From the NCBI GenBank assembly GCA_964016885.1, contig OZ024743.1, forward strand, positions 4,216,001-4,280,000: a DNA stretch of 64,000 nt, written 5' to 3'. The stretch is from Eledone cirrhosa. Its lineage: Eukaryota. Each line of letters begins with the position of its first letter. Position 1 is the first letter of the stretch. The notes below the pieces were generated by a model. That model did not search any database, was not told the DNA's origin, and saw nothing but the letters and a program-made list of their open reading frames with translations. This document shows, in pieces, positions 7,099 through 63,369 of this stretch. Made by a program: the position numbers and the translations under genes.

Positions 7099-7165
7099 TT
7101 TTATTATGCGCATTTCAAAAACAAATATCATCATGCAATAATATTTGTGTTTTCATCAGATAAAA
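7099..7165 (-). ncRNA. Minimal type-I hammerhead ribozyme
   Basis: ttttat-CTGATGA-aaacacaaatatt..atatttgttttt-GAAA-tgcgca-TA-ataaaa. Helix III is palindromic. Confidence 0.8.
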
Positions 7166-8056
7166 CAGGAAGACATGATATGAAGGTTAAAAAACACTTG
7201 TGGATAGTTCAGTTTTAAATCAACATATGAGAAGTAGTTTTCGATTGATGTGTGATATTGGGAAAAAATATTTTATTTAGAGGGGGGGGGGTTGGAAAGG
7301 ATGAAAAAGAGGAGGAGATGAGAGTAAAAAGTGGAGAGGGAGGAGTATAATGAGGAAGGATGAGATAGGAGGAGAGATGGGTGATAGAGAGAGAGAGATA
7401 GCTTTTATAACTGAGAAAGATATATTGTTTTACATAGAGAGGTTAAAAACCGTTGGAAGATAATGTATAAATTAAAAGAATTTGAAAATTAACGAAGAGA
7501 AAAAAAAAAAAAGAAAAAATAATGTAAAGTTAAGGTTTGTATATTGAGGGGTTTGATATGTGCGATGAAAAAGAAAATGTTAATATGTATTGAGAATAAT
7601 ATTTAGGGGTTTAATAATATGTGCGATGTTAAGAAAATGTTGATATGTATTATTGAAAGGAACAACAGGTTATTTAAGTAAGGAAATATTGTGAGATGAC
7701 CATGAATGAGTTAGATGAAAGGGAGAAAAGAATAATGAATTGAGGATGAATAATCTAACGTCAAAAAAATGTATATGTTTACGAAGGATTTTTACAAGGT
7801 GATATAGAGTAAGAATGTATTGTATTATGTAATAATTGATTCTATGTTAGGCAAGAGTGAGAAAGGGTTAGACATTAAAAGAAGAAGAGAAGAAAGGGAA
7901 GTGATAAATAGGAGCGATGTAGAATGAGTAACAAGTATTATAGAATGTATAATAACCTTTGAAATAAGGTAGAAAGATGGGTATATTTTTAAAAGAAGTG
8001 TATATATATATATGTGCCTTTGAGAAAAAGATTCTGAATTGATAAAGAATTGAATA

Positions 8057-9329
8057 TTAGCTGTATACTTTGTGAAATGTTTTATGGAATTTATGCAAGC
8101 AGATAGAAAACAAGTCAGTGCGTCTATTTATTATAGAATCTAAATTAGAAATAATGGTAAATTTTTCATTTAGACAGAGATTGCAAATTTTGGATAGAGA
8201 ACTGTTCAAGTATGAAGACGCAGAAGAAACCTTCTTCCAAAAGGTGCTATATTTAATATTTTTGTCTTTCAAGGACCATATGAGTTCTGAGAGAGCCGTG
8301 TTGGTTCTTTTAAGTTTGTATTTAAAAGACGAATGATGGTTATAAAGACGAGCTTTAAAAGAGGTGGAAGTGGAGCCAAAATAGGTGAAGGAATTGGTGT
8401 CAGTTATAACTTTACATTCGTAAATTAAGTTTTTATCAAGACAATGGTTGTTGAGAGGTAATTTATTTTTAATAGGGCAATTGCAATTGCGATTAGAGAG
8501 ATTATTAATGAGTGACCTAGTGTTATCTATAGAAGGAATTGGATTGGAGAAGTTATTTGCGATAGGAATAATAGTTTCTTGATTTACAATGGGATTAGGA
8601 ACATTTAGCGAAGTTGTGTTTGACGTTGTATTTGGGTTTGTAGAAATTAGCCTAGGGTTTACAATGACGTCGGGAGTACTATTATTATGATATTCAGTGT
8701 TGGAAGGAAGAGATTTAGTATTTAGTATTTTATTGTTGTGTTTAGAGATAATGTTGGAAATGTTGGAGGATGTAGAATAGGAAAATTTTATAGTGTGTTT
8801 GTTAAATATTTTACTATAGATATGTGAGGGAGGGAAGCATTTATTTAAGGCACTAAAGAATAATTTAGGAATATTGTTATTAATAGAGATGGAGAAAGGA
8901 GCATTATACCAGATTATGTTTTTGTATCTAGGTCTTTTATTAAAGTTATTGGAATGATCATGATTAATTATTCTACTGTAATTTCTTCTAGAATTTGTTT
9001 CTTTACTATATTTGATTTTATCAGGATAGCCGGCTTTAGAAAATGCGTTATTATAGTAATTGGCGTTAGCATCAAAGATGTTTTTATTAGAAGATAGGTT
9101 AGATATTCTTTTTCCAATATTACTAACTATAGCATTCTTGATATTAGTAGGATGGTTAGATTTAAAGTTAACATAGTTTAGTTCTCATTGTTTTTATGGT
9201 AAGTGTCAAGATTATAGGCCAGTGTCAAGATTAAGAGATACATCCAAGAAATTAGCTAGTTTGATGCTGTTATCAAATTCAATTTTTAGGTTATGTTGGT
9301 TAAAGAGATTACGTATATTGTTCTTAATA
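8057..9329 (-). pseudogene. PLE RT thumb + GIY-YIG endonuclease remnant
   Basis: NFLDVSLNL, SNHP..I, RISNLSSN, IIWYNAPF, CNCPIK, LIYECKV..TYFGSTSTSFKARLYNH, CNLCLNE, CLH. Homologous to ORF 37685-39430. Disrupted near 9180-9215, then open to the stop at 8057. Confidence 0.88.
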
Positions 9330-9409
9330 ATATTAAGAACAATATACGTAATCTCTTTAACCAACATAACCTAAAAATTGAATTTGGTTATGTTGGTTAA
9401 AGAGATTAT

Positions 9410-9697
9410 ATAATTGGTTATGCACGAGTGCATTAAGGTTTTCCAGGACACAGTGTTATGTACCGTGTAGGGGAAGGTCAGCTTACAACAGAGTGGTGCT
9501 CAACGAAATGCAGAAAATAGGTGTATATTCCAGTTTAGCTATACTCCGGGGCGTGTATAAAGAATCAAAAAGAACAGAAAGATGCAGTAAAAGAGATTTA
9601 TTCGGTTCTAACGTACGTTTCAATAGACATCAATTTGCCTAGATCTCGCTGCATCTATAATATTATATAGTTAGTTATAGTTCTGTTCTTTTTGATT

Positions 9698-11640: not shown

Positions 11641-11643
<3 letters not shown>

Positions 11644-12918
11644 CTATAAAGTAAAGCAAGTCCATAGAATTATTTGATAATATATATACACCATCTCTAC
11701 CCCCAATTAGCATAATTAACCACACAAAAATCAATTAGACCAGGCTATAAGATTAAAAGGCACCTATGAAGAAACTGTAAATAAATATACCATAGCAGCG
11801 TCTTCGCGGCCAACCGCTATAAAATATCTATCCAACATTTCAACAGCACGTGGAAATTAATTATACGGTCAACCATACACAATTAGGTATAAAATTAAAG
11901 TTAGAAATGCTTATATACATACCAGGACTAAATCACTAAATCCCTACCATGGTTTCGTTCGTATTTCGAGATATCCTATTAAGGATAAAACTCGAGTATC
12001 GAACTCGTCAGGGGACAAACGCGCTAGGACAGATTTTTTTCCGAAGTGGCCCCCGCCAAACAGGAATTCAAAATGACTTAGAACTGTGACGTGGCTATGG
12101 ACTTGCTTTACTTTATAGTATTTTGCTCTGAGTATTTAACTTATTAATTCTTCATTGAGCCATATCGTGAATGGTTGCAAAATCACATATATATCTGTGA
12201 CTTTGTTTAATTGGTGTATGTGTAAATATTTATATTTAATAATCTCCGGTAAGGTTGAGACACAATTTGGGCGATATTGGGCTGCGCTTTCTAGCAACCA
12301 ACCCACTCGCCGTAAGCAACCAATCACACTCTTTCTGACTTGACCACTGCCACGTCACAGTTCTAAGCCATTTTGAATTCGTGTTTGGCGGGGCCACTTC
12401 GGAAAAAAATCTGTCCTAGCGCGTTTGTCCCCTGACGAGTTCGATACTCGATGTTTATCCTTAATAGGATATCTCAAAATACGAACGAAACCATGGTAGG
12501 GATTTAGTGATTTAGTCCTGGTATGTATATAAGCATTTCTAACTTTAATTTTATACCTAATTGTGTATGGTTGACCGTATAATTAATTTCCACGTGCTGT
12601 TGAAACGTTGGGTAGATATTTTATAGCGGTTGGCCGCGAAGACGCTGCTATGGTATATTTATTTACAGTTTCTTCATAGGTGCCTTTTAATCTTATAGCC
12701 TGGTCTAATTGATTTTTTGAGTGGTTAATTATGCTAATTGGGAGAAGAAATGATGTATATATATTATCAGATAATTCTATGGACTTGCTTTACTTTATAG
12801 TATTTTGCTCTGATTATTTAATTTATTAATTCTTCATTGAGCCACATTGTGAATGGTTGCCAAAACACATATATATCTGTGACTTTGTTTAATTGGTGTA
12901 TGTGTAAATATTTATATT
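11641..12918 (+). mobile_element. Non-coding HHR element, family C: inverted arm plus terminally redundant 682-bp unit
   Basis: 11641-12095 is the reverse complement of ~12349-12803. 12096-12237 is directly repeated at 12778-12918. One HHR per unit, no meaningful ORF, (TA)n flanks. Confidence 0.85.
12428..12502 (+). ncRNA. Hammerhead ribozyme (family C; inverted copy at ~11941-12015)
   Basis: tccc-CTGACGA-gttcg...cgaac-GAAA-ccatgg-TA-ggga. Confidence 0.85.
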
Positions 12919-12948
12919 TTATATATACACGCATCCACACACACACAC

Positions 12949-26511: not shown

Positions 26512-28477
26512 TATAATAATAATTGTTCACTTGAACAAAACAACTATCGATATTGTAAGCATCAGTATTGCTAAAATGATTTTTTTTAAACCACTTCATC
26601 TGTTCAAAGTTTTATTCTTATGTTGTTTTATTTATAGTGCCAAGTATGAGGAAATCGTGGTGTGTCATGATTGCAAAATAGTTTCCATTTCTTGCTTAAG
26701 CAATTCCTCCAAGTCTTTGCAATTAATACCTATGATGAAACGGCACTATCACATTTTCCAAGACACAATACTTTATAACCCTTAGAACTTGTGTCTAAAG
26801 AAAAGCATCATTCAGAAGAATTTTTTTTTATTTTTTAATATTGCATAAATATCTAGTTCTAAGCATTAATATTTGTATGGGCAGAATCGCTTTCTGTTCC
26901 AACTCTCCATAGTCTAAGTTCAAATCACTTCCCCGCAAACATTGCCTTTTATCTTTTTGGATACTAGTGTCAATATAATCGATTTTTCGATGCTCCTAAA
27001 TGTCCGTCCTCGTACCTTTTGTAGGAAACTAATATCTAGTGAGAAACGTGGAAAACACCATAGAGCATGAAATCAGCTCGAAGCAAGAATATGTAGTGTC
27101 GCGTCGGAAATTATTACATTTCATATATATTTTTCCTTTTTTTATTTTTTAAAAAAGGTGAACATTTCAGATATTTTTTATACAAACAACACTTTTAATT
27201 ATAAATCTTTCATTCATAGTAAAAGAAAATAATAGTTAATTCCAAAGAAACTAATATAACAACATTGTACAGTGTAGGGTAAGATTAAGTGCCTCGTTTA
27301 ACTTTACTTCCTAGTTACGGTAATAATTCTCTTATAAAACCTGAGCCTATCAGCCTGCCTTATATAATTCAAGGCCCCATTGTTCTTAAAAATAAAAAGG
27401 AGGTTTACAAGAAATATGCACCATGTAGTGAAAATTAAGATCCTGGCAAACAATAACTGAGTTTTATCCTGATTGAAGAAAATACTAATTATTCATGTAT
27501 AGGTGGAGTATTGATTTCTCGCAAATTTTGAATAAGTATAGAGATGATTAGAGCGATAGTGATACTTAAAAGAAATTCTCGCTATCCAGAAAGAGATCAC
27601 GTTGTAAATCAAATAAAATCGTTCCTGTTATGCTATCTACAATCCATCTTGAGTAAAAAAATTAAATTTTAGATAGCCTATCTTGTCGTTTCGTTTCAGT
27701 TTTTAAGATATATCTGTTTTCCTTGAGAATTCAGATTTGAATTCGGCCTTTGTTTTTTTGGGGTTTTTTTTTATCACATGATGTATTATCTTCTTTCTTA
27801 ACTATTCCAATATAGATTTATTTTTTCCTTTCCTTTTGCTTTATTTTTTTTAGTTAAAGCAATCACTTTAGCTAAACATAAACTAATATATCGCTAGGTG
27901 CTACATATAAAAACGGTAATTGATTTTTTCCTTAAAGATCGCATGATAAAATAAATTTATTCCATTTGCTAATGTCAACTTTGTGAATCACGACTACTGC
28001 AGCACTTGATGTTACCAATAATGTGAAAACTGCGCTAGTTATGTTAGATCAATATTTTGATGAATGGTTTAAGACACGTCTTTCTTTGTAATTAAAGATA
28101 AGTATACGAAAGAAGCTCACATATATACAAATATATGCCCACATAAAACGATCGGACAAAAACATACACACAGACACACAAACAAATAAAAATATAGTAA
28201 AACGTGACTCAGAAATAACATGAAAACACGACAAATGGCTAGGATAACCTATTTAACAATTGTATGTATTTGTGTAGATATACGTGTATAAGCATTCACC
28301 CACACAAGTACACAGACTCAAATACATACAATACATACAAATACATACACACACACGGATGCACACAAATACACAGGCACACACACATATTTATATATAT
28401 TGGAAAATAGTCTTAATGATTTAACGAAACATCTATTGATTTAATATATTTGTGTGTGTGTGTGTATATATTTATAT

Positions 28478-28552
<75 letters not shown>

Positions 28553-28574
28553 CATACATACATACATACATACA

Positions 28575-28610
<36 letters not shown>

Positions 28611-28620
28611 TATACACACA

Positions 28621-29343
28621 TATCGCTATTAGCTTTCTCCGATAATGTATTTATTTATTTACTCTTGAAGCAACGGATATGAACTTCCCGATATAAGGTT
28701 TGACTCTCTTTGTTTATTTTTATATATGAATATTGATTGTTTCTTGTATCTCATTCTGTTATTTTGCCCGAGAAAATATCTGTGTCATCAAATGATGTAC
28801 AGATATGGGTATTTTTTAAATTTCCAATTGAGTACTAGCACGTGGCTTGAATTCCTTTTAGAATTCATTGTCCTGCGCATGTATTGTTTTTTGGCGGTAA
28901 TTCTCCTTCCTCCTTTTTTGAGACAGTTTGAGAATTTCTTTAGAACCGCTGGGCTAGCAACCTAGCAGCTACCTCAAGCACTGATGGTGATTATCGCTAA
29001 ATATTGATGTTGATTTGACTATCAATATTAATGTTATTGGGCAGCCACTGAAGAATTATAAGAGCCGACTTGAATAAGTATCTGTTGATCTTATACAAGC
29101 TTCTACATAACTTGGTATAATTTCACCCAACTTGTAGGAATCTTATAATGAAACGAGACGTCCGTCTGGGAAGAGATATATTTGATATATCTCATATGAA
29201 ATAATACAGCCAATGTTCCACACAATACAATTAGTTAGCACCCCGAACGTTTAGGAATATACTCAGGTATTTCCTAATATTTGATGAGTGAGTTAGGATT
29301 TGGCCGGAGTATCGCTATTAGCTTTCTCCGATTATGTATTTAT
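28621..29343 (+). mobile_element. Non-coding HHR element with 34-bp terminal direct repeat (689-bp period)
   Basis: tatcgctattagctttctccgat(a/t)atgtatttat at 28621 and 29310. HHR at 29042-29168. Microsatellite on both sides. Confidence 0.72.
29042..29168 (+). ncRNA. Hammerhead ribozyme with long helix II; helix I partly decayed
   Basis: CTGAAGA-attataaga...tcttataat-GAAA-cgagacg-TC-cgtctg. Confidence 0.65.
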
Positions 29344-29496
29344 ATATATATATATATATATATATAAAGTAGAAGGGGTTATTTAATTTGTTGGAAATCC
29401 GACAAATATAAATATAAATGTTTATAACTGATGTAGAGCACTCAACAGTTTCAATGATATTAAATAAATGGAAACTATTTTTATAAAACCATATTT

Positions 29497-29557
29497 ATTT
29501 TATTATATATATTTCAAGGGTACCAAAAGACTTTGGTACGCGTTCTTCAGATAAAAT
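29497..29557 (-). ncRNA. Minimal hammerhead ribozyme
   Basis: attttat-CTGAAGA-acgcgtaccaaa-gtct-tttggtaccctt-GAAA-tatata-TA-ataaaat. Confidence 0.8.
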
Positions 29558-29846
29558 ACAAAATTTGTTTTAAAAATAGAGACATATCCAGGAAAATAAT
29601 ACTTTATCAGTTGGATATTCTTTGGATAGTGGAAATGTATTAGGGATTTTTCAAATTTATGGGTGAATAAGCAAATGAATATGTAAATAATTGAAAAACA
29701 ACCGTTTATTTAAACGACTATGGAGAGAAAGAAGAGAGAAGAGAATAGTGAGAGGGGAGAGAGAGAGAGAGGGGGGAGAAGAAGAAGAAGGAAAAAACTG
29801 AAGATGAATAAAAACATAAAAAAAGAAGAGAGAAGAAGGACAAAAT

Positions 29847-29924
<78 letters not shown>

Positions 29925-30804
29925 AGGAAAAACCGAAGATGAATAAAAACTTATATAACGTAAATTTGAGGGAAATATATTCGGACAATTACGTATGTTT
30001 ATATGTAAATATATATCTTAATATTATGTGTATTTATATTAATTGTTTAAAATTTGTTTATAATATAATATTTTTCATTCGTTTATAAGTAGATAAATAA
30101 ATAAATAAATAAATAGGTGGGTATATCATGTTATAGATATTTGTTCAAATGAGTTATGAGGGATATTGGTTTTGTATTTTATGTAAATAAATATGTATTT
30201 ATAATTGAGAATAATTTAAAATTAAAATTAAATCAAATTAAATTAAATTTAGTTAACTAAGTTAAGTAAGAATATTTATAATTATATGATTTAAAAGGGA
30301 AGACAAGGAAAAAACTCCGGTTTTATTTATTTATTTGTTAGTGTGAAACAATTTAGTCAAAATAACTATAGATGTTTAAGATACATATAGCCAGAATCAG
30401 TTAGTGGTTATTAATCTATTGAAAAAATATTGAAAAATTATTGAGAAAATATTGAAAAGATATATTGAAAAAGTATATTGAAAAAATATATTAAAAAATA
30501 TTGAAAAGGATATTGAAAAAATAAAAAATAAAATTTTAAAAACCTTGAGAAAAATTTTGAAAAAATCTGAGAAAATCTTTAAAAAGTCCTTTCAAAAAAA
30601 TTTGTTTAAAGATAAGTAATTTTTAAAGAAATAAAAAATTATTCAAATTAAAAAAAAAAAAAAAAAATTAGAATTATATACGTATATGTTATATGAACAT
30701 TTTTAAGACGTAGAAGTACAACAAATGTTAGAGATATTATGATTTAGAGATATCAATATATTAAAACCAAGTAGATGAGATTAATAGGAATATTATAAGT
30801 ATAA

Positions 30805-32125
30805 TTATAAGTTATATATAGTTCTGAATGTTGAAATCTGGCGATGTCTACAAGAATTAAATAAATTCGTTCTTAGATTAATTGAGTTTTTACAGTTAAG
30901 TATATAAAAAATTTCCTCAATACACAATTTGCAGAATCTGGATAGAGCTGTGTTTCGTTATGCGGGTGCTCTTGAAACTGTTTCCCAAGCTAATGAATAG
31001 TCTATATTCTTGCATGGTAAGTTCCATATCAGGTTTAAAAGAGAAGTTGAAGATGTTTTATCAAATCTTCGGAAAGAAAAATTGTGGTTATTCCAGCGAC
31101 TTTTAAATTATGAAGAAGTTGCACCGACATAATTAAATATATTATCACTAGTTTAACTGTGCATTTATAGACCACGTTTTTATCTAAACACTTATTTTGT
31201 AAAGGACAGTTTGATTTAATTCTACAGTTACATTTTGCGGAGTTGTTGTTGCTCGGAACGGTACTCTTAGGTTGGATATTGCTAGAATTATTACTGCTAT
31301 TTTGGTTATTTTGGTTAGGGTTTAAATTTAAGTTTCTATTATTAATTTTGTTTATATTTTGTGCTATGGTCATAGTAGTAGAGTAGGATAGTTTTATAGT
31401 ATGTCTGTTAAAGATTGAGTGGTATCTGTGGGCTTTAGGAAAACATTTGTCTAGTGCTTTAAAGAATAGCTTTGCTAAAGGTGTTTTAACGCTTAATGAG
31501 AATGGGGATGAATACCAAATAATATTTCTAGTTCTAGTTCTGTTAGTTTTAGAGTTTAAGTTAAATATTTTTATTAATATTATAATTAATAGTAGGGTGA
31601 TTTGCCTTATTATTGTTGTCGATGTATTTAATCTTATTTATATACCCAGCTCTATTTAAAGCTTCATTATAATATTCTGCCTTATCATCAAAAATGTTTT
31701 TATTAGCGGAGATGCGTGAAATCCGTTGCTAGACACAATTGACAATAGTGTTCTTAATAGATCTAGGATGATTAGAGTTAAAACTTACATAGTTTAGATT
31801 CTCATTAATTTTATGGACTGGATAGTAGAGCCCTGTGCTAAGGTTTAATATTACGTCTAAAAGGTTAACGATTTTATAATTATTCTCTATTTCTAACTTA
31901 AGGTTGTAGTTATTGAAGAATTGTATTATGGATTTTCTTTTCCTATTAATTTCACAATTACTATGATTTTCAATTAAAAGCAGCATATCATCACCATATA
32001 AGCCACCGATCATCTCTGGTAATTTTCTATGCAGTGTATTATTAATAAATAACCCCACAAGATCCGTTATTTGCGCCGAGTCGGATGATCCCATGGTGAT
32101 ATCAAAATTATTTATTCTATCGACA
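30805..32125 (-). pseudogene. PLE RT (motif B onward) + GIY-YIG, frameshifted
   Basis: FDITMGSSDSAQITDLVG, LYGDD (vs LYRDD), SNHPRSI, IIWYSSPF, CNCRIKSNCPL, VVYKC, CRH. Contains stops and frameshifts. Confidence 0.9.
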
Positions 32126-32695
32126 CTTGTAGTATTTTTACTTAACTTAGTTAATTTAATTTAGTTTAATTTAATTTTAATTTTAAATTATTCTCAATTT
32201 TAAATACATATTTATTTACATAAAATACAAAACCAATATCCCTCATAACTCATTTGAACAAATATCTATAACATGATATACCCACCTATTTATTTCTTTA
32301 TTTACTTATAAACGAATGAAAAATATTATATGATAAACAAATTTTAAACAATTAATATAAATACACATAATATTAAGATATATATTTACATATAAACATA
32401 CGTAATTGTCCGAATATATTTCCCTCAAATTAACGTTATATATGTTTTTATTCATCTTCAGTTTTGTTCCTTCTTCTCTCTCTGTCTCTCTCTCTCCCTC
32501 TCACTATTCTCTTCTCTCTTCTTTCTCTTCATATCGTTTAAATAAACGGTTGTTTTTCAATTATTTACATATTCATTTGCTTATTCACCCATAAGTTTGA
32601 AAAATCCCTAATACATTTCCACTATTCAGAGAATATCCAACTGATAAGGTATGATTTTCCTGGATATGTCTCTATTTATAAAACAAATTTTGTAT

Positions 32696-32752
32696 TTTAT
32701 CTGAAGAAAGTGTACCAAAGTCTTTTGGTACCCTTGAAATATATATAATAAA
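32696..32752 (+). ncRNA. Minimal hammerhead ribozyme (inverted arm copy)
   Basis: tttat-CTGAAGA-aagtgtaccaaa..tttggtaccctt-GAAA-tatata-TA-ataaa. Confidence 0.8.
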
Positions 32753-32775
32753 TATAGTTTCCATTTATTTAATAT

Positions 32776-32818
<43 letters not shown>

Positions 32819-33768: not shown

Positions 33769-33836
<68 letters not shown>

Positions 33837-33890
33837 TAAACAAATAATGAATAAAACAATGAAACAGTTCCTTATATTAAACAAAAAAAG

Positions 33891-34045
33891 TTCATTATTT
33901 AACGATCGTTTCTAGGATATATATGTGTTAGAATTGGCATGCATATTCAACAGATCTATGTACAAAATTATACAAAATTATACAAACTATCAAGATTAAA
34001 TATACATACCAAACACACATATACGCCGTCTTCAGAAATAATGAA
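33891..34045 (-). ncRNA. Hammerhead ribozyme (inverted copy of 42979-43133)
   Basis: Reverse complement of the right-arm motif. Confidence 0.75.
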
Positions 34046-34666
34046 ATATATTTATTGATAATAACAACAATTCAAAATTTCAGGTCCGTTTGGGAACAAA
34101 ATTGACCAATGAAAATACAAAAGGTTTTATGCAGTTTGGCGTGTGTATATACATGTAACTACCCCGTACACATATTTATACAAAGATGTATGCTCAACAT
34201 GCATACGCATGCCAAAAAGATGCATGCAAATACAAAATTTCAAGGTTAATGTCTCTGTAAGTTTATAATGCACAGATAAGATGCGTATAGACACATAAAT
34301 ATGAAATAAGTGTATACACATATTCTCATACTCACACATATCCGTACACTCACACACACGCGCGCGTATATGCATAAACATACACATAATTACGAACATA
34401 CATACACACACACACCCCCACACACATATATATATGTGGATATAATATTATCATAAGCACATGGATATTAATTCACTCACATAAACACTGCCACACACAT
34501 TTAGATCAAGATACAGAAATTAGGTGGGAGGGGTGGAGAGGTCAGTACTCAACGGTTTGGGCAGACTGCTTATTTATAGATGTATCTATAAACTAAGAAA
34601 TAAAAAATAAAAATTAAAAAGGAAAGAAAAGAAAAAGAAAAAAGAAAAAAGAAATATATCAAGAAA

Positions 34667-34745
<79 letters not shown>

Positions 34746-34833
34746 CACACATCTACACTTAGAACACACATACACACACATATATAAACATATACATATA
34801 CACACATACACACATATACACACATACATATAA

Positions 34834-34866
<33 letters not shown>

Positions 34867-35381
34867 TACACATATAATCACACATACATATATAGACACA
34901 CATATATATACACATACACGCACATATACATACACATACATACTTATATACATACAGATATACACATACATACCTATATATACACACAAATACATACAGA
35001 CATACATACATACATACACACAAATACTTACGCATCCATATATCGGTATATACATACAAACACCACTACACTCTCACACAACTCAGACATACAAAGAAAA
35101 AGGTATATACCTATACACATATACACATACAAATAGAGATACATATACATATATATATATATATACACATATATATATATATATATACATACACATATAC
35201 ACACATATATATACATACACATACATACATGTACTCACACATACATATACATACATACACACATACACACATACATATATAGTCATACACACACATACAC
35301 CTACACGAACATACACATACACATATATAAAGATATATATACACACGCACACATACACACACACACATATATATAAAATAA

Positions 35382-35460
<79 letters not shown>

Positions 35461-36017
35461 CACATATACATAGACATATATGTACATACATACACATACA
35501 TACATACATATACACACATATATATATATATATACACACATAGACACATACATACATACACACACAACATACATACACACACATATATACTCATACATAG
35601 ACATAGATATATATTCATACATACATACGCACTTACATATACTCATATATACAAATACATACGCATCCATATATGCGTATATACATACAAACACCACTAC
35701 ACTCTCACACAACTCAGACATACAAAGAAAAAGGTATATACATATACATATATACACACAATAATAGAGATACATATACACATATATATATATATATATA
35801 CACATACATCTATATATATACACCCACACACACATACAACCATAAACACACATACAAACACACACATACACACATATATACATACATATATATACACACA
35901 CACAAAAAAAACACACATACACATATATATTTTTTTACACATATATATACATATATATACATATACACACCCTCACATATACACACATACACATAAGTTA
36001 TATTATAATAATAAATA

Positions 36018-36048
<31 letters not shown>

Positions 36049-36081
36049 CGAATATAGACATATATACACACATAGATATAC

Positions 36082-36117
<36 letters not shown>

Positions 36118-37114
36118 TCACATATATATGTGCGCACACGTACATATATACACATACACACATATACACATAAACATATACATGTGCATACATGTACATA
36201 CACACATATAGCCACATAGATACGAAGATAGACATATATATAGAGAGACATACATATATATACACATATATATATACACATACATACACACATATATATA
36301 TATATATATACACACACACATACACGCCCACACACATATACACATATACACATATATATATATATACATATACACATATATATACACATGCATATATACA
36401 CATATATATATATATACACACATATATATACACACAATCTTACATTCTTATTTGCATGCGCATATATGTATTTTTATATTCAGATATAAATACCCAAACA
36501 TATATACACCTACCTACATATATATTCATACATACACGCTTACAAACACAGATGATAATAGTATGGGGGAAAGGGGGGGGGGGTTGGAGAAGGGGATTAT
36601 AGTAAATATATGTTTCAAGAAACATAGAATATTATCTGTATCTGGATCCCAATATATGTTTTTACATAGTTTCAGTGTTAGGAAATACAAGAAATAAGGC
36701 AAAATTATGCATTTCAAAATAAGTATACCATTAATTATATGTTAACTAAACTAAAGATAGTTAACATATTGATTTCTAAGGTGTAAATTAGTTAGGTTTA
36801 TAATATTTGAAGCAGAATTTTGAAGTTAAATAGTAGTAGAGTATTAATTATAGTATAACTAAATTAAAGTTATTAACGTTATGGTATCAATATTAGGAAA
36901 TGAATTTAGTAATAGGGAAAAAACAAATAAAGTATTACATCGGTAGTAGAATATACATTATAGGTTAACTAAATTAAAAATTATATATTAATTTCTATAG
37001 TATATGTTAATTAGGTATATAATAAATAAAACAGATATTGTATTTTGTCAATAGCAGAATATAATTATATGCAAATAGAAATCAAAATTAATACATATAC
37101 ATATACATATACAT

Positions 37115-37169
<55 letters not shown>

Positions 37170-37684
37170 TACATACACATACATATACATACATACATAT
37201 ACATATTTTTTCAAAAATTGCAAAGAATATATTAACTAGGTATACATCCAAAACACATCCCATTCTATGATTACATGACACTCTGCAATCCGTCTGTATA
37301 AGGATACTAATTTTAAGCCAATTAAATTAAATTTTTAGGTTGACTAAATTTAAAACCAAATTATAAATATATTTCTAAAATGTATATTAATTAGGTCTAT
37401 AATACTAAAAATTATTTCTCTGTCATTGGATACACGATATTTTGTTATATTTTATCTGTAAAGGAATTTTAATAAAAGGTTTAAATAAATTAAAATTAAT
37501 CTATAAATTAAATTACTAAGTATATATTAGTAATATTTAAAGGTTTTTCACAATTTATGATTACACAATATTTTATATTCTCATCTGTAGTAGAATTTTA
37601 ATTAAATTAAATTTATAGGTTAACTAACATTTAAATTAAATTAATTTCTAAAATAATGTTATTAATTAGGTTTATAATATTTAA

Positions 37685-39430
37685 ATGTTTTTTTTAGTTT
37701 ATGATTACAGATGTAAATCTTCTGCTTCATTTCTACAATTTGATATAGATAATTACTATTCTTCTATATCACCTATACTCCTGAACAAAGCATTGATATT
37801 TGCTAAAAATAGATCTAACTTAACTTTGGATGACATTAATATTATTACACATGCTAGACTAACACTTATTGAATTTCAGAATGAATACTGGACCAGAAAC
37901 ACATATAGTAATCTATTTGATATTACTATGGGTTCAAGCGATTCCGCCCAAATTACTGATCTTGTGGGCCTCTTTCTCCTTTTCAACATAAATGCCTCCT
38001 TTCCCCACCTCAAAGGTGGTTTATATCGTGATGACTGTCTTCTTCTTTCTAACAACCTTAGCCTTTCAGAAATTGAAAAAAACAAAAAACATATTAGAAC
38101 TCTCCTTAAAGACTATTATAATCTTCATATTACTTTTGAAAAAACAAGTAAAGTAGTAAATTTCCTAGATATAACTTTAGATTTAGCTACGGGTATCTAC
38201 CAACCTTACCATAAACCAAACCAAAACTTACATTACATACACTCACAATCTAATCACCCTAAATCTATCCTTAAAAACCTTGCATATAATATATCACTTA
38301 GAATTTCTAACCTTTCTTCTAACCAAGATGTATTTGATAAAAATGCGACCTTCTATAACGAAGCTCTAGATAGAAGTGGCCACAAAAATAGATTAGAATA
38401 TATACCTTCTACTAAAAATACTAAAAGCATACAACCTAATATTACCAACAAACACCAAATGAAAAGTACACACCTAAATGCCACCCACACTATACCCCAA
38501 AATACCAAATCTTCTAATATAAAATATAGTAACTCTCAAAAAACTACTCATCATACAACTCTAATAAATATTAATAATAAAACTCCTAATAAAAAAGATA
38601 AAACACCTAAATCTACAAATATAACTAAAGATGGTTGTGGTGAGATCATTAACATTAATCCTCCTAGTAAACATCACGATACAACCTATAAAAATAATAA
38701 AAATAATAAACAACATAGAAACCGTAATAGACGGGTTACTTGGTATAATGCTCCATTTAATTTACAAATTAAGGATAATATTGCTAAAAATGTTTTTTAT
38801 ATCCTAGAGAAAAACTTCCCGCCAAACCACAAATACCATCAAATCTTAAATAGGTCTACAGTTAAATTCTCATACTCAACAACAAATAACATAAAACAAA
38901 ATATAAGTGCCTATAATGCATATAAATGTAAGAAAACCATAAGTATACCACCAGTACATCAAATTAACCATAATATCTCCTCAAATACAGAATTAACGAA
39001 AGGTTGTAACTGTAGAAACAAAGCAAACTGCCCATTAAAAGGGAATTGTCTTGTTAACAACATAGTCTATAAATGTAATGTTAAAACTAAAGATTCTATT
39101 TGCTCATATATAGGAGCTACCTCTAACAATTTTAAGACAAGGTTTAATACCCACAAGCATAGTTTTAAAAATGCCGCACTGGCTAATACAACATCTCTAG
39201 CAGAAAAAATCAATAGTTATAAAAATAAGAATATAGAATATGATTTGACCTGGAGTGTGCTCAAAAGAGCCACCCCTTATCAAAATAATAGAAATGAATG
39301 TAGATTATGTTCCCAAGAACTATTTGAAATAATGAAATCTAAGGATATCCTATTAAATAAACGACAGGAATTAATTATATCGTGTAATCATAAACTAAAA
39401 AAAACATTTAAATATTATAAACCTAATTAA
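37685..39430 (+). CDS. PLE reverse transcriptase + C-terminal GIY-YIG endonuclease, N-terminally truncated but uninterrupted (581 aa)
   Basis: RT motifs A FDIDNYYSSI, B FDITMGSSDSAQITDLVG, C LYRDD and E FLDITL, thumb SNHP, CxCx5C linker (CNCRNKANC), IVYKC..YIGAT..KTRFNTH, CRLC..E, LNKR, CNH. The first ~8 codons come from the inverted arm. Confidence 0.93.
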   Translation: MFFLVYDYRCKSSASFLQFDIDNYYSSISPILLNKALIFAKNRSNLTLDDINIITHARLTLIEFQNEYWTRNTYSNLFDITMGSSDSAQITDLVGLFLLFNINASFPHLKGGLYRDDCLLLSNNLSLSEIEKNKKHIRTLLKDYYNLHITFEKTSKVVNFLDITLDLATGIYQPYHKPNQNLHYIHSQSNHPKSILKNLAYNISLRISNLSSNQDVFDKNATFYNEALDRSGHKNRLEYIPSTKNTKSIQPNITNKHQMKSTHLNATHTIPQNTKSSNIKYSNSQKTTHHTTLININNKTPNKKDKTPKSTNITKDGCGEIININPPSKHHDTTYKNNKNNKQHRNRNRRVTWYNAPFNLQIKDNIAKNVFYILEKNFPPNHKYHQILNRSTVKFSYSTTNNIKQNISAYNAYKCKKTISIPPVHQINHNISSNTELTKGCNCRNKANCPLKGNCLVNNIVYKCNVKTKDSICSYIGATSNNFKTRFNTHKHSFKNAALANTTSLAEKINSYKNKNIEYDLTWSVLKRATPYQNNRNECRLCSQELFEIMKSKDILLNKRQELIISCNHKLKKTFKYYKPN

Positions 39431-39922
39431 TAACATTATTTTAGAAATTAATTTAATTTAAATGTTAGTTAACCTATAAATTTAATTTAATTAAAATTCT
39501 ACTACAGATGAGAATATAAAATATTGTGTAATCATAAATTGTGAAAAACCTTTAAATATTACTAATATATACTTAGTAATTTAATTTATAGATTAATTTT
39601 AATTTATTTAAACCTTTTATTAAAATTCCTTTACAGATAAAATATAACAAAATATCGTGTATCCAATGACAGAGAAATAATTTTTAGTATTATAGACCTA
39701 ATTAATATACATTTTAGAAATATATTTATAATTTGGTTTTAAATTTAGTCAACCTAAAAATTTAATTTAATTGGCTTAAAATTAGTATCCTTATACAGAC
39801 GGATTGCAGAGTGTCATGTAATCATAGAATGGGATGTGTTTTGGATGTATACCTAGTTAATATATTCTTTGCAATTTTTGAAAAAATATGTATATGTATG
39901 TATGTATATGTATGTGTATGTA

Positions 39923-39979
<57 letters not shown>

Positions 39980-40970
39980 ATGTATATGTATATGTATATG
40001 TATTAATTTTGATTTCTATTTGCATATAATTATATTCTGCTATTGATAAAATACAATATCTGTTTTATTTATTATATACCTAATTAACATATACTATAGA
40101 AATTAATATATAATTTTTAATTTAGTTAACCTATAATTTATATTCTACTACCGATGTAATACTTTATTTGTTTTTTCCCTATTACTAAATTCATTTCCTA
40201 ATATTGATACCATAACGTTAATAACTTTAATTTAGTTATACTATAATTAATACTCTACTACTATTTAACTTCAAAATTCTGCTTCAAATATTATAAACCT
40301 AACTAATTTACACCTTAGAAATCAATATGTTAACTATCTTTAGTTTAGTTAACATATAATTAATGGTATACTTATTTTGAAATGCATAATTTTGCCTTAT
40401 TTCTTGTATTTCCTAACACTGAAACTATGTAAAAACATATATTGGGATCCAGATACAGATAATATTCTATGTTTCTTGAAACATATATTTACTATAATCC
40501 CCTTCTCCAACCCCCCCTTTCCCCCATACTATTATCATCTGTGTTTGTAAGCGTGTATGTATGAATATATATGTAGGTAGGTGTATATATGTTTGGGTAT
40601 TTATATCTGAATATAAAAATACATATATGCACATGCAAATAAGAATGTAAGATTGTGTGAATATATATGTGTGTATATATATATATATGTGTATATATGC
40701 ATGTGTATATATATGTGTATATGTATATATATATATATGTGTATATGTGTATATGTGTGTGGGCGTGTATGTGTGTGTGTATATATATATATATATGTGT
40801 GTATGTATGTGTATATATATATGTGTATATATATGTATGTCTCTCTATATATATGTCTATCTTCGTATCTATGTGGCTATATGTGTGTATGTACATGTAT
40901 GCACATGTATATGTTTATGTGTATATGTGTGTATGTGTATATATGTACGTGTGCGCACATATATATGTGA

Positions 40971-41010
<40 letters not shown>

Positions 41011-41625
41011 GTATATCTATGTGTGTATATATGTCTATATTCGTATGTGTATATATATATATATATATTATTTAATATTATAATATAACTTATGTGTATG
41101 TGTGTATATGTGAGGGTGTGTATATGTATATATATGTATATATATGTGTAAAAAAATATATATGTGTATGTGTGTTTTTTTTGTGTGTGTGTATATATAT
41201 GTATGTATATATGTGTGTATGTGTGTGTTTGTATGTGTGTTTATGGTTGTATGTGTGTGTGGGTGTATATATATAGATGTATGTGTATATATATATATAT
41301 ATATGTGTATATGTATCTCTATTATTGTGTGTATATATGTATATGTATATACCTTTTTCTTTGTATGTCTGAGTTGTGTGAGAGTGTAGTGGTGTTTGTA
41401 TGTATATACGCATATATGGATGCGTATGTATTTGTATATATGAGTATATGTAAGTGCGTATGTATGTATGAATATATATCTATGTCTATGTATGAGTATA
41501 TATGTGTGTGTATGTATGTTGTGTGTGTATATATGTATGTGTCTATGTGTGTATATATATATATATATGTGTGTATATGTATGTATGTATGTGTATGTAT
41601 GTACATATATGTCTATGTATATGTG

Positions 41626-41674
<49 letters not shown>

Positions 41675-42189
41675 TTATTTTATATATATGTGTGTGTGTG
41701 TATGTGTGTGTGTGTATATATATCTTTATATATGTGTATGTGTATGTTCGTGTAGGTGTATGTGTGTGTATGACTATATATGTATGTGTGTATGTGTGTA
41801 TGTATGTATATGTATGTGTGAGTACATGTATGTATGTGTATGTATATATATGTGTGTATATGTGTATGTATATATATATATATATATGTGTATATATATA
41901 TATATATGTATATGTATCTCTATTTGTATGTGTATATGTGTATAGGTATATACCTTTTTCTTTGTATGTCTGAGTTGTGTGAGAGTGTAGTGGTGTTTGT
42001 ATGTATATACCGATATATGGATGCGTAAGTATTTGTGTGTATGTATGTATGTATGTCTGTATGTATTTGTGTGTATATATAGGTATGTATGTGTATATCT
42101 GTATGTATATAAGTATGTATGTGTATGTATATGTGCGTGTATGTGTATATATATGTGTGTCTATATATGTATGTGTGATTATATGTGTA

Positions 42190-42222
<33 letters not shown>

Positions 42223-42310
42223 TTATATGTATGTGTGTATATGTGTGTATGTGTGTATATGTATATGTTTATATATGTGTGTGTATGTGTGTTCTAAGTG
42301 TAGATGTGTG

Positions 42311-42360
<50 letters not shown>

Positions 42361-42978
42361 CTTGATATATTTCTTTTTTCTTTTTTCTTTTTCTTTTCTT
42401 TCCTTTTTAATTTTTATTTTTTATTTCTTAGTTTATAGATACATCTATAAATAAGCAGTCTGCCCAAACCGTTGAATACTGACCTCTCCCCCCCTCCCAC
42501 CTAATTTCTGTATCTTGATCTAAATGTGTGTGGCAGTGTTTATGTGAGTGAATTAATATCCATGTGCTTATGATAATATTATATCCACATATATATATGT
42601 GTGTGGGGGTGTGTGTGTGTATGTATGTTCGTAATTATGTGTATGTTTATGCATATACGCGCGCGTGTGTGTGAGTGTACGGATATGTGTGAGTATGAGA
42701 ATATGTGTATACACTTATTTCATATTTATGTGTCTATACGCATCTTATCTGTGCATTATAAACTTACAGAGACATTAACCTTGAAATTTTGTATTTGCAT
42801 GCATCTTTTTGGCATGCGTATGCATGTTGAGCATACATCTTTGTATAAATATGTGTACGGGGTAGTTACATGTATATACACACGCCAAACTGCATAAAAC
42901 CTTTTGTATTTTCATTGGTCAATTTTGTTCCCAAACGGACCTGAAATTTTGAATTGTTGTTATTATCAATAAATATAT

Positions 42979-43133
42979 TTCATTATTTCTGAAGACGGCG
43001 TATATGTGTGTTTGGTATGTATATTTAATCTTGATAGTTTGTATAATTTTGTATAATTTTGTACATAGATCTGTTGAATATGCATGCCAATTCTAACACA
43101 TATATATCCTAGAAACGATCGTTAAATAATGAA
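42979..43133 (+). ncRNA. Hammerhead ribozyme with ~115-nt helix II domain
   Basis: ttcattattt-CTGAAGA-cggcgtatatgtgt...acacatatatatccta-GAAA-cgatcg-TT-aaataatgaa. Helix I is 10 bp and helix III is palindromic. Confidence 0.78.
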
Positions 43134-43325
43134 CTTTTTTTGTTTAATATAAGGAACTGTTTCATTGTTTTATTCATTATTTGTTTAATATTTTATCTTG
43201 ACTCTGTATACCGTTTATCTTTCACCGAAAGTGATTTTTCATTACATCTCTTCTTTCCATGATATCCGGAATACATTGAGTTCTTCATACGGATTGGACA
43301 CTACCTTAAACTCTTGGTAGATTTA

Positions 43326-60090: not shown

Positions 60091-60245
60091 TATATATATT
60101 GTTATACTTTGGGAGGGTCATCTTGCCAATAAGAAACACACGCACCAGTTGCTTTCACTTCAATTTATTATATATTTATAAATTTATAAATTTATAAATT
60201 TCTGGTTGGTTGGTGGGTTCCACAACCAGATAGTTGTTTATATAT

Positions 60246-60290
60246 AGTCATAGTTCTTTCGTCACACACTCTGTGACCTCTTCAGTGACT
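60246..60290 (-). ncRNA. Ultra-minimal hammerhead motif (the sense copy at ~62204-62248 has CTGAAGT)
   Basis: agtca-CTGAAGA-ggtcaca-gagtg-tgtgac-GAAA-gaac-TA-tgact. Confidence 0.65.
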
Positions 60291-60945
60291 GGGGATTCCT
60301 TTCTTTGTTTCTGTGCCTCTCCTTTGTTCTGTCCTACGCCATTCCAACAACAACAGACACACAGACACAAACAACAATAACAACAACACACACATCAACA
60401 TCAACAGCAATAACAACATACCCAGAAACAACAACAACAGACACGCAGACACAAACAACAATAACAAAAACACACAACAGCAATAACACACACGGAGACA
60501 ACAACAACACACATCAACAACAGCACGCATCAACAACAACAACACACACGCATTCAATGCCTCTCACCACCACCACAATCTTAACAAACACACAGACACA
60601 GAAAACAAGTAATGACAGTAGCACAGAAATCACAGAAATAAGGGAAAGTAATAGGATTAAAAGGAGAAGGGAGACTAAGGACAAAGAGAATAACCAAGAC
60701 GAACACACAGACACACAAAATAGGGTAGATAACAACAATGAGCCAGTGGAAAGAGACAGGAGTAATTATGAGAGACATAGAAACAACCATGAGGCTCTTG
60801 GTGGAAATAGAAATAGAAACAACACAACTAACAATAACAATAGCACTAGTACACATAAAGCAGCAGCCTGGAACTCTACGTTTTATAATCCCTCCGATAA
60901 ATCATTCGACCTGCGACGAACAGTCAGGAACTAGAGAAAAACACA

Positions 60946-62004
60946 ATGAAAAGCATCCAGCAAATAGCAAACTCCATCCACCAGAGCATTAGAGTTACTA
61001 TAGACTACCCAAGTAAACACCCCAACCATCGATTACCTGTACTAGACACAGAGCTCTGGTTAGATACCATTAACAACAAAAAACAAATCCTCCATTCCCA
61101 TTATGCCAAACCCATGACTTCCAAACATCTGATCCACCGAAACTCGGCCATTTCGGACCATACCAAAATCAACATACTGATTGCGGATTTGGTACGGGTG
61201 ATGAGAAATGTGTCCCGCATGTGCAACCCCGAAGAACTAGAGAGACACATACAACACTTCATCCACCGTATGCAGTTCTCTGGCTACAATCAGAGAGATA
61301 AAATCAGAGTGTATAGAGGAGCCAGAACCAAATGGGAAAAAATGGTAAATAATGACATAAATGGGACCTGCCCCTTGTATAGGAGCAAATTTTGGAATAT
61401 AATAGAAAGAACTAGGAACAAGGCTAATAGAATAAACTCATGGTATGATAGCAATAAATACCAGAGTGTAATGTTCATCAATACAACCCCTAGAGGTGAA
61501 TTAGCTTACAAATTTAGAAGGGACCTAAATAAACATAAACTCAATATTAAGATAGTAGAAAGACCAGGTACCTCCGTAAAAACACTTATTAGCAAGACAT
61601 ACCCTTTTCAAAGACCCTCTTGTATAGATAAGAAATGTATAACCTGTAAAATAAGCCCCCATATTAACTGTAAAACTAGAAATGTAGTGTATAGCATAAG
61701 ATGTACTGAAGGACAATGTACAGACAAAAATATAGTGTACATAGGTGAGACAGCTCGTAGTGTAGGGGAACGGATAAATGAACACTGGCGAGACCTTCAA
61801 GATAATAAAGAATCATCTGTACTCTACCAACATTCTAAGATAGAACACAAGCGTAAATTAGAGAACATAGAAATAAAAATAGAATCTACACACAGAAAAG
61901 ACGCAATGTTTAGACAAATTACAGAGGCAATAAACATAAAAGAATTACAACCAAAATTAAATAGAAAATATGAGTGGAATAGCAACATCACAACTTACAA
62001 TTAA
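60946..62004 (+). CDS. PLE RT C-terminal/thumb + Cys-rich linker + GIY-YIG endonuclease (5'-truncated)
   Basis: LPVLD, HYAKPM, SGY, C..C..C..C linker, VVYSIRC..C..VYIGETARSVGERINEH, H..H, RQITEA.I..LN. Confidence 0.9.
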   Translation: MKSIQQIANSIHQSIRVTIDYPSKHPNHRLPVLDTELWLDTINNKKQILHSHYAKPMTSKHLIHRNSAISDHTKINILIADLVRVMRNVSRMCNPEELERHIQHFIHRMQFSGYNQRDKIRVYRGARTKWEKMVNNDINGTCPLYRSKFWNIIERTRNKANRINSWYDSNKYQSVMFINTTPRGELAYKFRRDLNKHKLNIKIVERPGTSVKTLISKTYPFQRPSCIDKKCITCKISPHINCKTRNVVYSIRCTEGQCTDKNIVYIGETARSVGERINEHWRDLQDNKESSVLYQHSKIEHKRKLENIEIKIESTHRKDAMFRQITEAINIKELQPKLNRKYEWNSNITTYN

Positions 62005-62449
62005 GGACAAAATGAAAACACACACACACATAGAACAAACAACCAACCAGTAACGTGTAAATAAACAAATAAATAAATGAACATAAACACACACAGACAC
62101 CCGGATGTGGCGCATGCTCAGACTGAGCACACAACACACACCCAGAAACAAAATGACGTAGGACAGACAAAGGAGAGGCACAGAAACAAAGAAAGGAATC
62201 CTCAGTCACTGAAGTGGTCACAGAGTGTGTGACGAAAGAACTATGACGATATATAAACAACTATCTGGTTGTGGAACCAACCAACCAGAAATTTATAAAT
62301 TTATAAATATATAAATATATAATAAATTGAAGTGAAAGCAACTGGTGCGTGTGTTTATTATTGGCAACATGACCCTCCCAAAGTATAACAATATCGGTTT
62401 CAACACACGATTTCAGGTAAAGAATCTTGCTAAACAAATTCAGAAACGA

Positions 62450-63369
<920 letters not shown>

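What the first reader, a model, noticed from the sequence alone, without database searches (positions are those of the whole stretch)
28621..29343. Second, unrelated ~690-bp single-HHR unit with terminal redundancy
Seen: a 34-bp direct repeat 689 bp apart, an HHR core with a 9-bp helix II, no ORF and microsatellite flanks. Upstream of the HHR lie gcacgtgg, tgcgcatg and tttggcgg; the last also occurs in the 682-bp unit. Inference: two sequence-unrelated families with nearly the same monomer size suggest a class of PLE-dependent circular-RNA elements. A long TSD is the alternative, but the repeat sits inside the microsatellite rather than matching it.
Basis: partly seen in the sequence, partly recalled or inferred. 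Interest (0 to 1): 0.7.

Follow-up and report, generated by a model that had tools for sequence, protein, structure and literature searches.

The report
Self-cutting RNA passenger of Penelope retrotransposons
This is one clipped copy of an abundant, protein-free jumping element of a known kind (an animal retrozyme), and many of its sister copies begin exactly at the predicted cut site of its hammerhead ribozyme, which suggests that the ribozyme really cuts the RNA that gets copied into the genome.

Summary
The 34-bp repeat, hammerhead and lack of ORF are confirmed. The repeat is neither a TSD nor a fixed terminal repeat. The unit is a 1.05-monomer copy of a non-coding ~690-bp family (1,619 exact 3'-end matches) with one fixed 3' end in (TA)n, random 5' truncation and head-to-tail read-through up to 3.6 units. 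No copy sampled is joined to an ORF. The hammerhead is of the Penelope (PLE) type and covaries across three subfamilies and a ~75%-identical sister family. 5' ends peak at the predicted cut (11 of 28 junctions at that base; 5 of 19 in the sister family), so cleavage of the template in vivo is likely. Microhomology makes similar peaks elsewhere and is the main confounder. Repeats within one insertion share variants, which fits a circular or re-copied monomer, but no RNA data were available. Verdict: a new family of animal non-LTR retrozyme / non-autonomous PLE; this single-ribozyme copy is probably a dead end. This scan already reported the same class, and a cut-site signal, for other families in this genome; look-ups by sequence did not find this family.

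The parts
28621..29343 (+). Whole insertion: 1.05 monomers of the ~690-bp non-coding hammerhead element (subfamily with GCTATTAGC)
   Evidence: differs from its subfamily majority at 24 of 689 positions, others average 2.9%
28621..28654 (+). 5' copy of the 34-mer: start of a second round, cut off by 5' truncation
   Evidence: other copies have overlaps from -10 to +302 nt and up to 3.6 units
29310..29343 (+). 3' copy of the 34-mer: fixed 3' end of the family (inferred start of reverse transcription), running into (TA)n
   Evidence: 81 of 88 copies end at monomer position 34-42; (TA)3 within 16 nt in 148 of 155
29045..29169 (+). Type I hammerhead, PLE-like: helix I 3 bp here (4 bp in the family), helix II 9 bp, helix III 3 bp with self-complementary loop
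   Evidence: helix III self-duplex -14.7 kcal/mol
29064..29140 (+). 77-nt two-hairpin insert capping helix II
   Evidence: three pairs with changes on both sides in these two helices
29166..29167 (+). Predicted cleavage site GUC|U (monomer 546/547), where 5' ends of other copies peak
29305..29330 (+). Hairpin 13 nt before the fixed 3' end, with a compensatory change in the sister family; candidate recognition signal
   Evidence: pair 20/686 C-G to U-A
28838..28897 (+). GCACGTGG, TGCGCATG and TTTGGCGG motifs; promoter role untested
   Evidence: major-allele frequency 0.96-0.98 against about 0.92 around them; only CACGTG kept in the sister family
28465..28620 (.). 5' flank: (TA)n/(TACA)n microsatellite
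29344..29366 (.). 3' flank: (TA)n target, shared with the end of the neighbouring coding PLE
29367..32780 (-). Neighbour, not part of the unit: PLE with inverted arms (29452-30223 vs 32179-32780), its own hammerheads and a broken ORF (31035-32160)

Best explanation
This is a 5'-clipped, 1.05-unit copy of an abundant protein-free ~690-bp hammerhead element that is likely copied into (TA)n repeats by a Penelope-like retrotransposon enzyme, probably from a ribozyme-cut RNA that can be re-closed into a circle. Steps: (1) rare copies of two or more units are transcribed (inferred; 7 of 82 hold two whole hammerheads, 4 also the upstream motifs). (2) Two hammerheads, likely paired through their self-complementary helix III loops, cut at GUC (the fold and its covariation are shown; cutting is inferred from where copies end). 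(3) Part of the released monomer is ligated to a circle (inferred from known retrozymes). (4) A PLE RT/GIY-YIG protein nicks (TA)n and starts copying at one internal site 177 nt downstream of the cut, next to a hairpin (fixed end shown; enzyme inferred, not identified). (5) On a cut RNA it runs out at the cut and leaves a ~170-nt copy; on a covalently continuous RNA it reads through and can pass its own start, giving head-to-tail copies of any length. The 34-bp repeat is such an overshoot. With one hammerhead and a weakened helix I, the window copy is probably a dead end. Family-level assignment about 0.9; the circle step alone about 0.6.
For: Fixed 3' end 81 of 88; spans under 689: 51, 689-760: 9, 761-1378: 24, longer: 4. 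(TA)n at the end in 148 of 155; direct flank duplication in 2, inverted in 4, 0 of 150 control pairs. Internal junctions are templated: 38 of 42 have one of three fixed 12-nt spacers and none has an expanded (TA)n; 172 exact genome matches. Hammerhead: 95.3% of cells paired, 6 pairs changed on both sides against 0-1 in slid controls, 47 sequences. Circular fold z -5.0 to -9.7 for 4 monomers, against -2.4 to +2.7 for 11 window controls; 8 both-side changes in window-predicted helices against 0-3 slid, 4 of the 8 outside the hammerhead. 5' ends: 18 of 80 in the 20 nt 3' of the cut, 0 of 62 in the next 20 nt, background 3.6%; 11 of 28 TA-flanked junctions at base 547 and 2 at 548 (p 0.002 against other single-T positions); control site with the same T|GGG context 3 of 26 (p 0.02); sister family 5 of 19 at its cut. 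49 of 53 read-through junctions keep exact length. Repeats in one insertion share 30 of 155 minor variants, 4.8 expected; quartets: within-insertion 440, by position 22, cross control 18. PLE traits and min-HHR shape as in PMC8557442 and PMC4209133; internal initiation as in PMC11167929.
Against: No RNA data at all: expression, cleavage and circles are unshown. No autonomous partner found. Microhomology alone makes peaks of the same size: 12 of 26 junctions at a TAT match at the control site, and 11 of the 18 near-cut ends lie at a TA-like spot, position 556. In second-round copies the edge is not sharp: 8 of 29 just 3' of the cut, 6 of 21 just 5' of it (a biased set), and any excess there fits a partly cut linear multimer better than a closed circle. 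The 682-bp family shows no sharp edge (4 ends 3' and 3 ends 5' of the cut within 40 nt). A hairpin at 553-573 and the helix III duplex could stall RT near the same place. Within-insertion identity (96.6%) is below the best other copy (97.6%). Quartet counts are not independent and identical-unit linear sources give the same pattern. 38 of 68 variable pairs in window-predicted helices are broken in relatives, and the minus strand also folds well (z -3.4). 'Pairs changed on both sides' did not beat the shuffle control (178 of 500). Inverted arms and a second 'tail' end, typical of PLEs, are rare (about 2 of 94). PMC11167929 found cleavage unnecessary in vitro and no RNA-seq ends at the cut for another PLE.
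Confidence: 0.6

Rival explanations
1. Same element and enzyme, but no circle: templates are linear multimer transcripts, partly cut by the hammerheads, and length is regained only by template jumping or DNA-level duplication.
For: 5' ends are also frequent near the cut in the second round (8 of 29), as expected if an upstream hammerhead made the 5' end; dimers and longer copies exist as possible sources.
Against: No position-specific lineage of upstream versus downstream repeats (22 vs 18); junctions at the cut keep exact length in 49 of 53, unlike sloppy jumps; 5' truncation would shorten linear sources every generation, yet the monomer persisted to ~75% divergence (inference).
Confidence: 0.22
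2. The unit is the pseudo-LTR of a low-copy autonomous PLE that was not sampled; most copies are its truncated ends.
For: Hammerhead is of the PLE pLTR type (PMC4209133); retrozymes match pLTRs in Xenopus (10.64898/2026.07.22.740005); only 163 insertions of at least 1,600 were examined.
Against: Copies longer than one unit run into their own 3' end, not into an ORF (37 of 88 span a unit or more); same-strand PLE ORF pieces end 515 bp or more upstream, at unrelated monomer positions; the sister family is also ORF-free.
Confidence: 0.1
3. A SINE-like element mobilised by a microsatellite-targeting LINE rather than a PLE, with the hammerhead as a passenger.
For: Single 3' end, few inverted arms; the bulged hairpin reported at ends of Hydra-type families is absent next to the 3' end in all 31 monomers tested.
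Against: Precise head-to-tail read-through past the start needs internal initiation, shown for a PLE (PMC11167929); no poly(A) tail or tRNA-like head seen by eye (no tRNA scan run); almost no TSDs; PLE-type hammerhead; at least two PLE types in this window alone.
Confidence: 0.06
4. The 34-mer is a target-site duplication or a true terminal repeat of fixed length.
For: It is a near-perfect direct repeat at both ends of this copy.
Against: It is part of the element at unrelated loci, occurs internally and the overlap ranges from negative to several units.
Confidence: 0.01

Closest known systems
Metazoan non-LTR retrozymes (Cervera and de la Pena 2020, PMC7229834, parts 2-4 of 6 read; Li, Clavereau and Pollet 2026, bioRxiv 10.64898/2026.07.22.740005, parts 1-3 of 5 read, supplements closed)
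   Same: Non-coding, GC under 50%, type I hammerhead in each unit, head-to-tail copies, no LTR/PBS/PPT seen, predicted self-paired fold, coexists with PLEs; dispersed monomers are described in the preprint.
   Different: Monomer 690-705 bp (170-400 nt in the validated cases, though 51-972 bp in the preprint); mostly sub-monomer copies, longest seen 3.6 units; PLE-type hammerhead with a 77-nt branched helix II insert instead of a canonical 6-bp/4-bp motif; almost no TSD; 5' ends at the cut site, which I did not see reported in the parts read.
Penelope-like elements with C-terminal GIY-YIG (Hydra, Neptune, Nematis) and their pLTR min-hammerheads (PMC8557442, passages read; PMC4209133, parts 1-2 of 4 read)
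   Same: (TA)n targeting, strong 5' truncation, partial tandems, occasional inverted structures; helix I 4 bp, long helix II, palindromic helix III.
   Different: No ORF; no sequence match to resident coding PLEs in 1.0 Mb examined; inverted arms and second tail end rare; A-U rather than G-C at the base of helix II in the main family (G-C in the sister family).
Poseidon PAc of Anolis (Frangieh et al. 2024, PMC11167929, parts 1-2 of 4 read)
   Same: Copies end at a fixed internal site downstream of the hammerhead, near a stem-loop, in AT-rich targets.
   Different: PAc has two start sites and an ORF; its cleavage was dispensable in vitro and no RNA ends were seen at the cut, whereas here genomic 5' ends peak at the cut.
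Non-autonomous Chlamys elements such as MRC1 (PMC8557442, passage read)
   Same: Non-coding PLE passengers with pLTR-like overlaps and multicopy head-to-tail insertions, once mistaken for LTR elements.
   Different: Those share 3' sequence with autonomous partners, and Chlamys elements mostly lack hammerheads; no partner was found here.

Membership tests
Non-LTR retrozyme | Type I hammerhead with intact core in each repeat unit | tested here: met
   multimers carry one per unit
Non-LTR retrozyme | No protein-coding capacity | tested here: met
   no ORF joined in sampled copies
Non-LTR retrozyme | Tandem arrangement with at least two hammerhead-bearing units (active form) | tested here: met
   Met for the family (7 of 82 copies; up to 3.6 units); not met by the window copy, which is a monomer derivative
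Non-LTR retrozyme | No LTRs | tested here: met
   overlap length is variable, not a fixed terminal repeat; PBS and PPT were not searched for
Non-LTR retrozyme | Highly self-paired monomer RNA | tested here: met
   predicted only: z -5.0 to -9.7, 64-66% paired; controls z -2.4 to +2.7 but up to 67% paired
Non-LTR retrozyme | Self-cleavage activity | tested here: inconclusive
   indirect only: 5' ends peak at the predicted cut; microhomology and stalling not fully excluded
Non-LTR retrozyme | Expressed as circular RNA | not testable with these tools
   needs RNA data or a bench test
Non-autonomous PLE | Fixed 3' end, 5' truncation, partial tandem (pLTR-like) insertions in microsatellites without clear TSD | tested here: met
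Non-autonomous PLE | Inverted 5' arm and 30-40-bp tail | tested here: inconclusive
   about 2 inverted pairs in 94 arms (L169/L170, L204); 4 inverted flank duplications in 155
Non-autonomous PLE | Sequence shared with an autonomous PLE partner | tested here: inconclusive
   none in 269 loci (1.0 Mb) plus the window; the genome could not be searched exhaustively
Autonomous PLE (pLTR-ORF-pLTR) | RT plus GIY-YIG ORF between repeats | tested here: not met
Hydra-type passengers as described in earlier scan notes | Bulged RYTC...TN-GARY hairpin just past the 3' end | tested here: not met
   absent next to the 3' end in 31 of 31 monomers; the same descriptor finds it in other elements of the loci
Plant LTR retrozyme | Type III hammerhead in LTRs, 4-bp TSD | tested here: not met
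   type I topology, no fixed repeat

The most novel reading that the evidence does not exclude
This lineage is a long-lived ~700-nt structured circular RNA replicon whose genomic copies record both states of its template: ribozyme-cut molecules leave copies starting exactly at GUC|, re-ligated circles leave read-through multimers. It would be nucleotide-precise genomic evidence that a Penelope-type hammerhead cuts the retrotransposition template in vivo, in a one-ended family that may use a different PLE clade from the two-armed families in the same genome.
Probability: 0.45. Interest if true: 0.7.

Novelty: new member of a known kind. Interest (0 to 1): 0.48.

Why it matters
What hammerheads do in Penelope-like elements is open: PMC8557442 calls the function unclear, and PMC11167929 found cleavage dispensable in vitro. 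More than a thousand copies of one non-coding passenger, with 5' ends peaking at the predicted cut, turn this into a countable genomic readout and give a compact substrate for cleavage, ligation and priming assays. The long branched helix II also explains why Rfam missed it, so such families are probably undercounted. The element class itself is known.

Tried and rejected
Rfam scan of the window at gathering score: no hit. RNA runs: no RNA holder listed; three contig-only runs of one study gave nothing on expression. Pfam on four window PLE proteins: no hit, so clade labels (Hydra-like CxCX5C linker in 37685-39430; CX4CxxC linker in 60901-62004) rest on reading the sequence against PMC8557442. 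Search for a coding partner by TBLASTN of flanks (distances were read off only) and by weak BLASTN: only further non-coding relatives at 71-81%. Two copies behind the same PLE 3' end (L046, L069) were considered as a chimera or parent and rejected: different monomer positions, and that flank occurs in both orientations. Plain within- versus between-insertion identity was uninformative. The sister-family counts were over-collapsed by my duplicate filter and were redone; the 682-bp counts used the same filter and may be undercounts. Conservation figures for positions 524-549 are inflated because those copies were selected by that pattern. Scripts 49 and 51 failed on a regex. Look-ups of earlier findings by sequence and in relatives were blank. 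Literature searches listed no paper that, by title or start of abstract, describes a cephalopod retrozyme family or genomic 5' ends at a hammerhead cut; the library lacks most subscription journals and Repbase/Dfam, and supplements were not read, so this family may already be catalogued. The host is an animal; 'cephalopod' comes from earlier notes and was not tested.

Full report
Observation. The repeat is real: 28621-28654 and 29310-29343, 689 apart, 33 of 34 identical. The hammerhead lies on the + strand (core 29048, GAAA 29150, GTC 29164-66) with a 9-bp helix II that closes a 77-nt two-hairpin insert. Rfam misses it. There is no ORF. The flanks are microsatellites. The 682-bp unit at 12095-12919 is unrelated in sequence.

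A high-copy family. A DNA search of the 3.0-Gb genome gave 3,235 first-look candidates, of which 40 were scored, at 90-95% identity apart from the window itself. Exact patterns give 843 hammerhead pieces and 1,619 3'-end pieces, controls 0. I took the insertions behind the first 100 hammerhead matches on contig 1 (88 insertions). 81 of 88 end at monomer position 34-42; 5' ends are spread over the whole monomer; 51 are shorter than one unit, 9 span 689-760, 24 span 761-1378 and 4 are longer, up to 3.6 units (one of the four is inflated by an adjacent sister copy and is 2.0 units). Several of the 7 other 3' ends are alignments split by internal indels or later insertions. Over 155 normal-ended insertions, 148 have (TA)3 within 16 nt of the end; 2 have direct and 4 inverted flank duplications. 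Internal junctions read through with a fixed spacer (38 of 42 in three 12-nt forms; 172 exact matches). So the 34-mer is element sequence, and the window copy is one round plus 34 nt.

No coding parent seen. PLE ORF pieces are common in flanks, as expected for elements that share (TA)n targets, but same-strand pieces end 515 bp or more upstream and at unrelated monomer positions (110 insertions, 0.3-3.2 kb of upstream flank). Weak BLASTN over 269 loci (1.0 Mb) found only further non-coding relatives. About a tenth of the copies were seen, so a rare parent is not excluded. The family splits into three subfamilies. A sister family at about 75% identity, monomer about 760 bp, has the same layout. 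The lineage has therefore persisted as a non-coding monomer for a long time (inference).

The RNA is under structural constraint. Across 47 hammerheads, 95.3% of cells pair and 6 pairs change on both sides, in helix I, helix II and both insert hairpins; slid controls give 0-1, while the shuffle control for that count was not beaten. The variable core position N7 is the one that differs between subfamilies. Helix I is 4 bp in the family and 3 bp in this copy. Short helix I, long helix II and a self-complementary helix III match the PLE min-hammerheads that work as dimers (PMC4209133). Whole monomers fold as circles with z -5.0 to -9.7, the sister -4.1, the 682-bp unit -2.6, controls -2.4 to +2.7 (8-12 shuffles each). 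Helices predicted from the window copy alone show 8 both-side changes (4 outside the hammerhead) but also 38 broken pairs among 68 variable ones, so support outside the hammerhead is moderate. Of the three upstream motifs only CACGTG is kept in the sister family; a promoter is untested.

5' ends mark the predicted cut. In a sample anchored on the 3' end (94 arms, 91 with a normal end), 18 of 80 copies that reach it stop in the 20 nt just 3' of the cut and 0 of 62 in the next 20 nt; background is 3.6% per 20 nt. Eleven of the 18 sit at a TA-like spot, so I ran controls. In one subfamily a TA run elsewhere stops 2 of 44 against 11 of 58 at the cut (p 0.028). A gap pattern that shows exact junctions (first 100 of 261 rows, 28 distinct loci after dropping one duplicate, 5 already seen) gave 11 at base 547 and 2 at 548, against 1 and 5 at the other single-T positions. 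A control site with the same T|GGG context gave 3 of 26, but also 12 of 26 at a 3-nt microhomology, so peaks of this size can arise without a cut (first 100 of 204 rows). The sister family gave 5 of 19 at its cut (all 32 rows) and 4 of 25 within -14 to +1. These counts were read by eye. Against: second-round copies show 8 of 29 just 3' and 6 of 21 just 5' of the cut, and the 682-bp family shows no edge. Stalling at structure would be expected at the 3' base of a helix rather than exactly at 547 (inference). I put in vivo cleavage of the template at about 0.7.

Circle or linear multimer. Most copies that reach the cut read through it, 49 of 53 with exact length, so those templates were covalently continuous. 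Repeats within one insertion share 30 of 155 minor variants against 4.8 expected, and quartets give 440 within-insertion, 22 by-position and 18 cross patterns. That fits re-copying of one monomer, as proposed for PLEs and retrozymes (PMC4209133, PMC7229834), but young linear sources with identical units would look the same. Only 7 of 82 copies hold two whole hammerheads; the window copy is not one of them.

Comparison. It works like an animal non-LTR retrozyme mobilised by a PLE and passes the sequence-level tests for that class; activity and circular RNA were not shown. It is not an autonomous PLE, an LTR element or a TSD. Unlike the 682-bp family, which has two 3' ends about 116 nt apart and inverted arms, it has one end, few inverted arms and lacks the bulged hairpin that earlier notes tie to Hydra-type ends, so its partner may be another clade. 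Earlier notes describe the same class several times in this genome. I saw the 5' pile-up before reading the note that reports a similar signal in a ~683-nt family; the junction tests came after it.

Verdict. New family of a known kind. The value lies in the cut-site signal. Interest 0.48.

Noticed in passing
window 11641-12919: The 682-bp hammerhead unit belongs to a family with 235 exact 3'-end matches, two 3' ends about 116 nt apart and frequent inverted arms: a two-armed PLE signature unlike the 689-bp family.
   Followed up: partly
L080:7780-8350 (-), L116-L145, L210-L239: Sister family at ~75% identity, ~760-bp monomer, helix III palindrome ACGAUCGU or ACGGCCGU, same fixed end in (TA)n; one copy sits directly behind a dimer of the main family.
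   Followed up: yes
L156:892-1353; L148:8-115; L219:1096-1298: Further relatives at 71-81% identity to both monomers: more sister families exist.
   Followed up: no
L080:3050-3530 (+); L120 (- strand, about 950-1430): Another hammerhead repeat with CA(C/T)CCA-CUGA start and a long helix III, two copies similar over about 450 bp, ending in (TA)n.
   Followed up: no
window 33832-43192: About 9.4-kb inverted duplication: a PLE with a 581-aa RT/GIY-YIG frame (37685-39430, CxCX5C linker) whose inverted arms include some 3.4 kb of flanking DNA.
   Followed up: no
window 29367-32780 and 7100-9410: Two more broken PLEs of the same type with inverted arms and hammerheads whose helix III loops are palindromes (AUAUAUAU, AUGCGCAU).
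   Followed up: partly
window 60096-62452: PLE of another type (367-aa frame, CX4CxxC linker) with an inverted arm, an unduplicated tail of about 58 nt and a hammerhead-like motif near 62209; a candidate partner clade, untested.
   Followed up: no
window 33530 and 43477 (- strand), 10737, 17305: The bulged RYTC...TN-GARY hairpin of earlier notes is present in other repeats of this window.
   Followed up: partly
L009, L016, L038, L202: Inverted duplication of 23-54 nt of target DNA at the 5' junction.
   Followed up: partly
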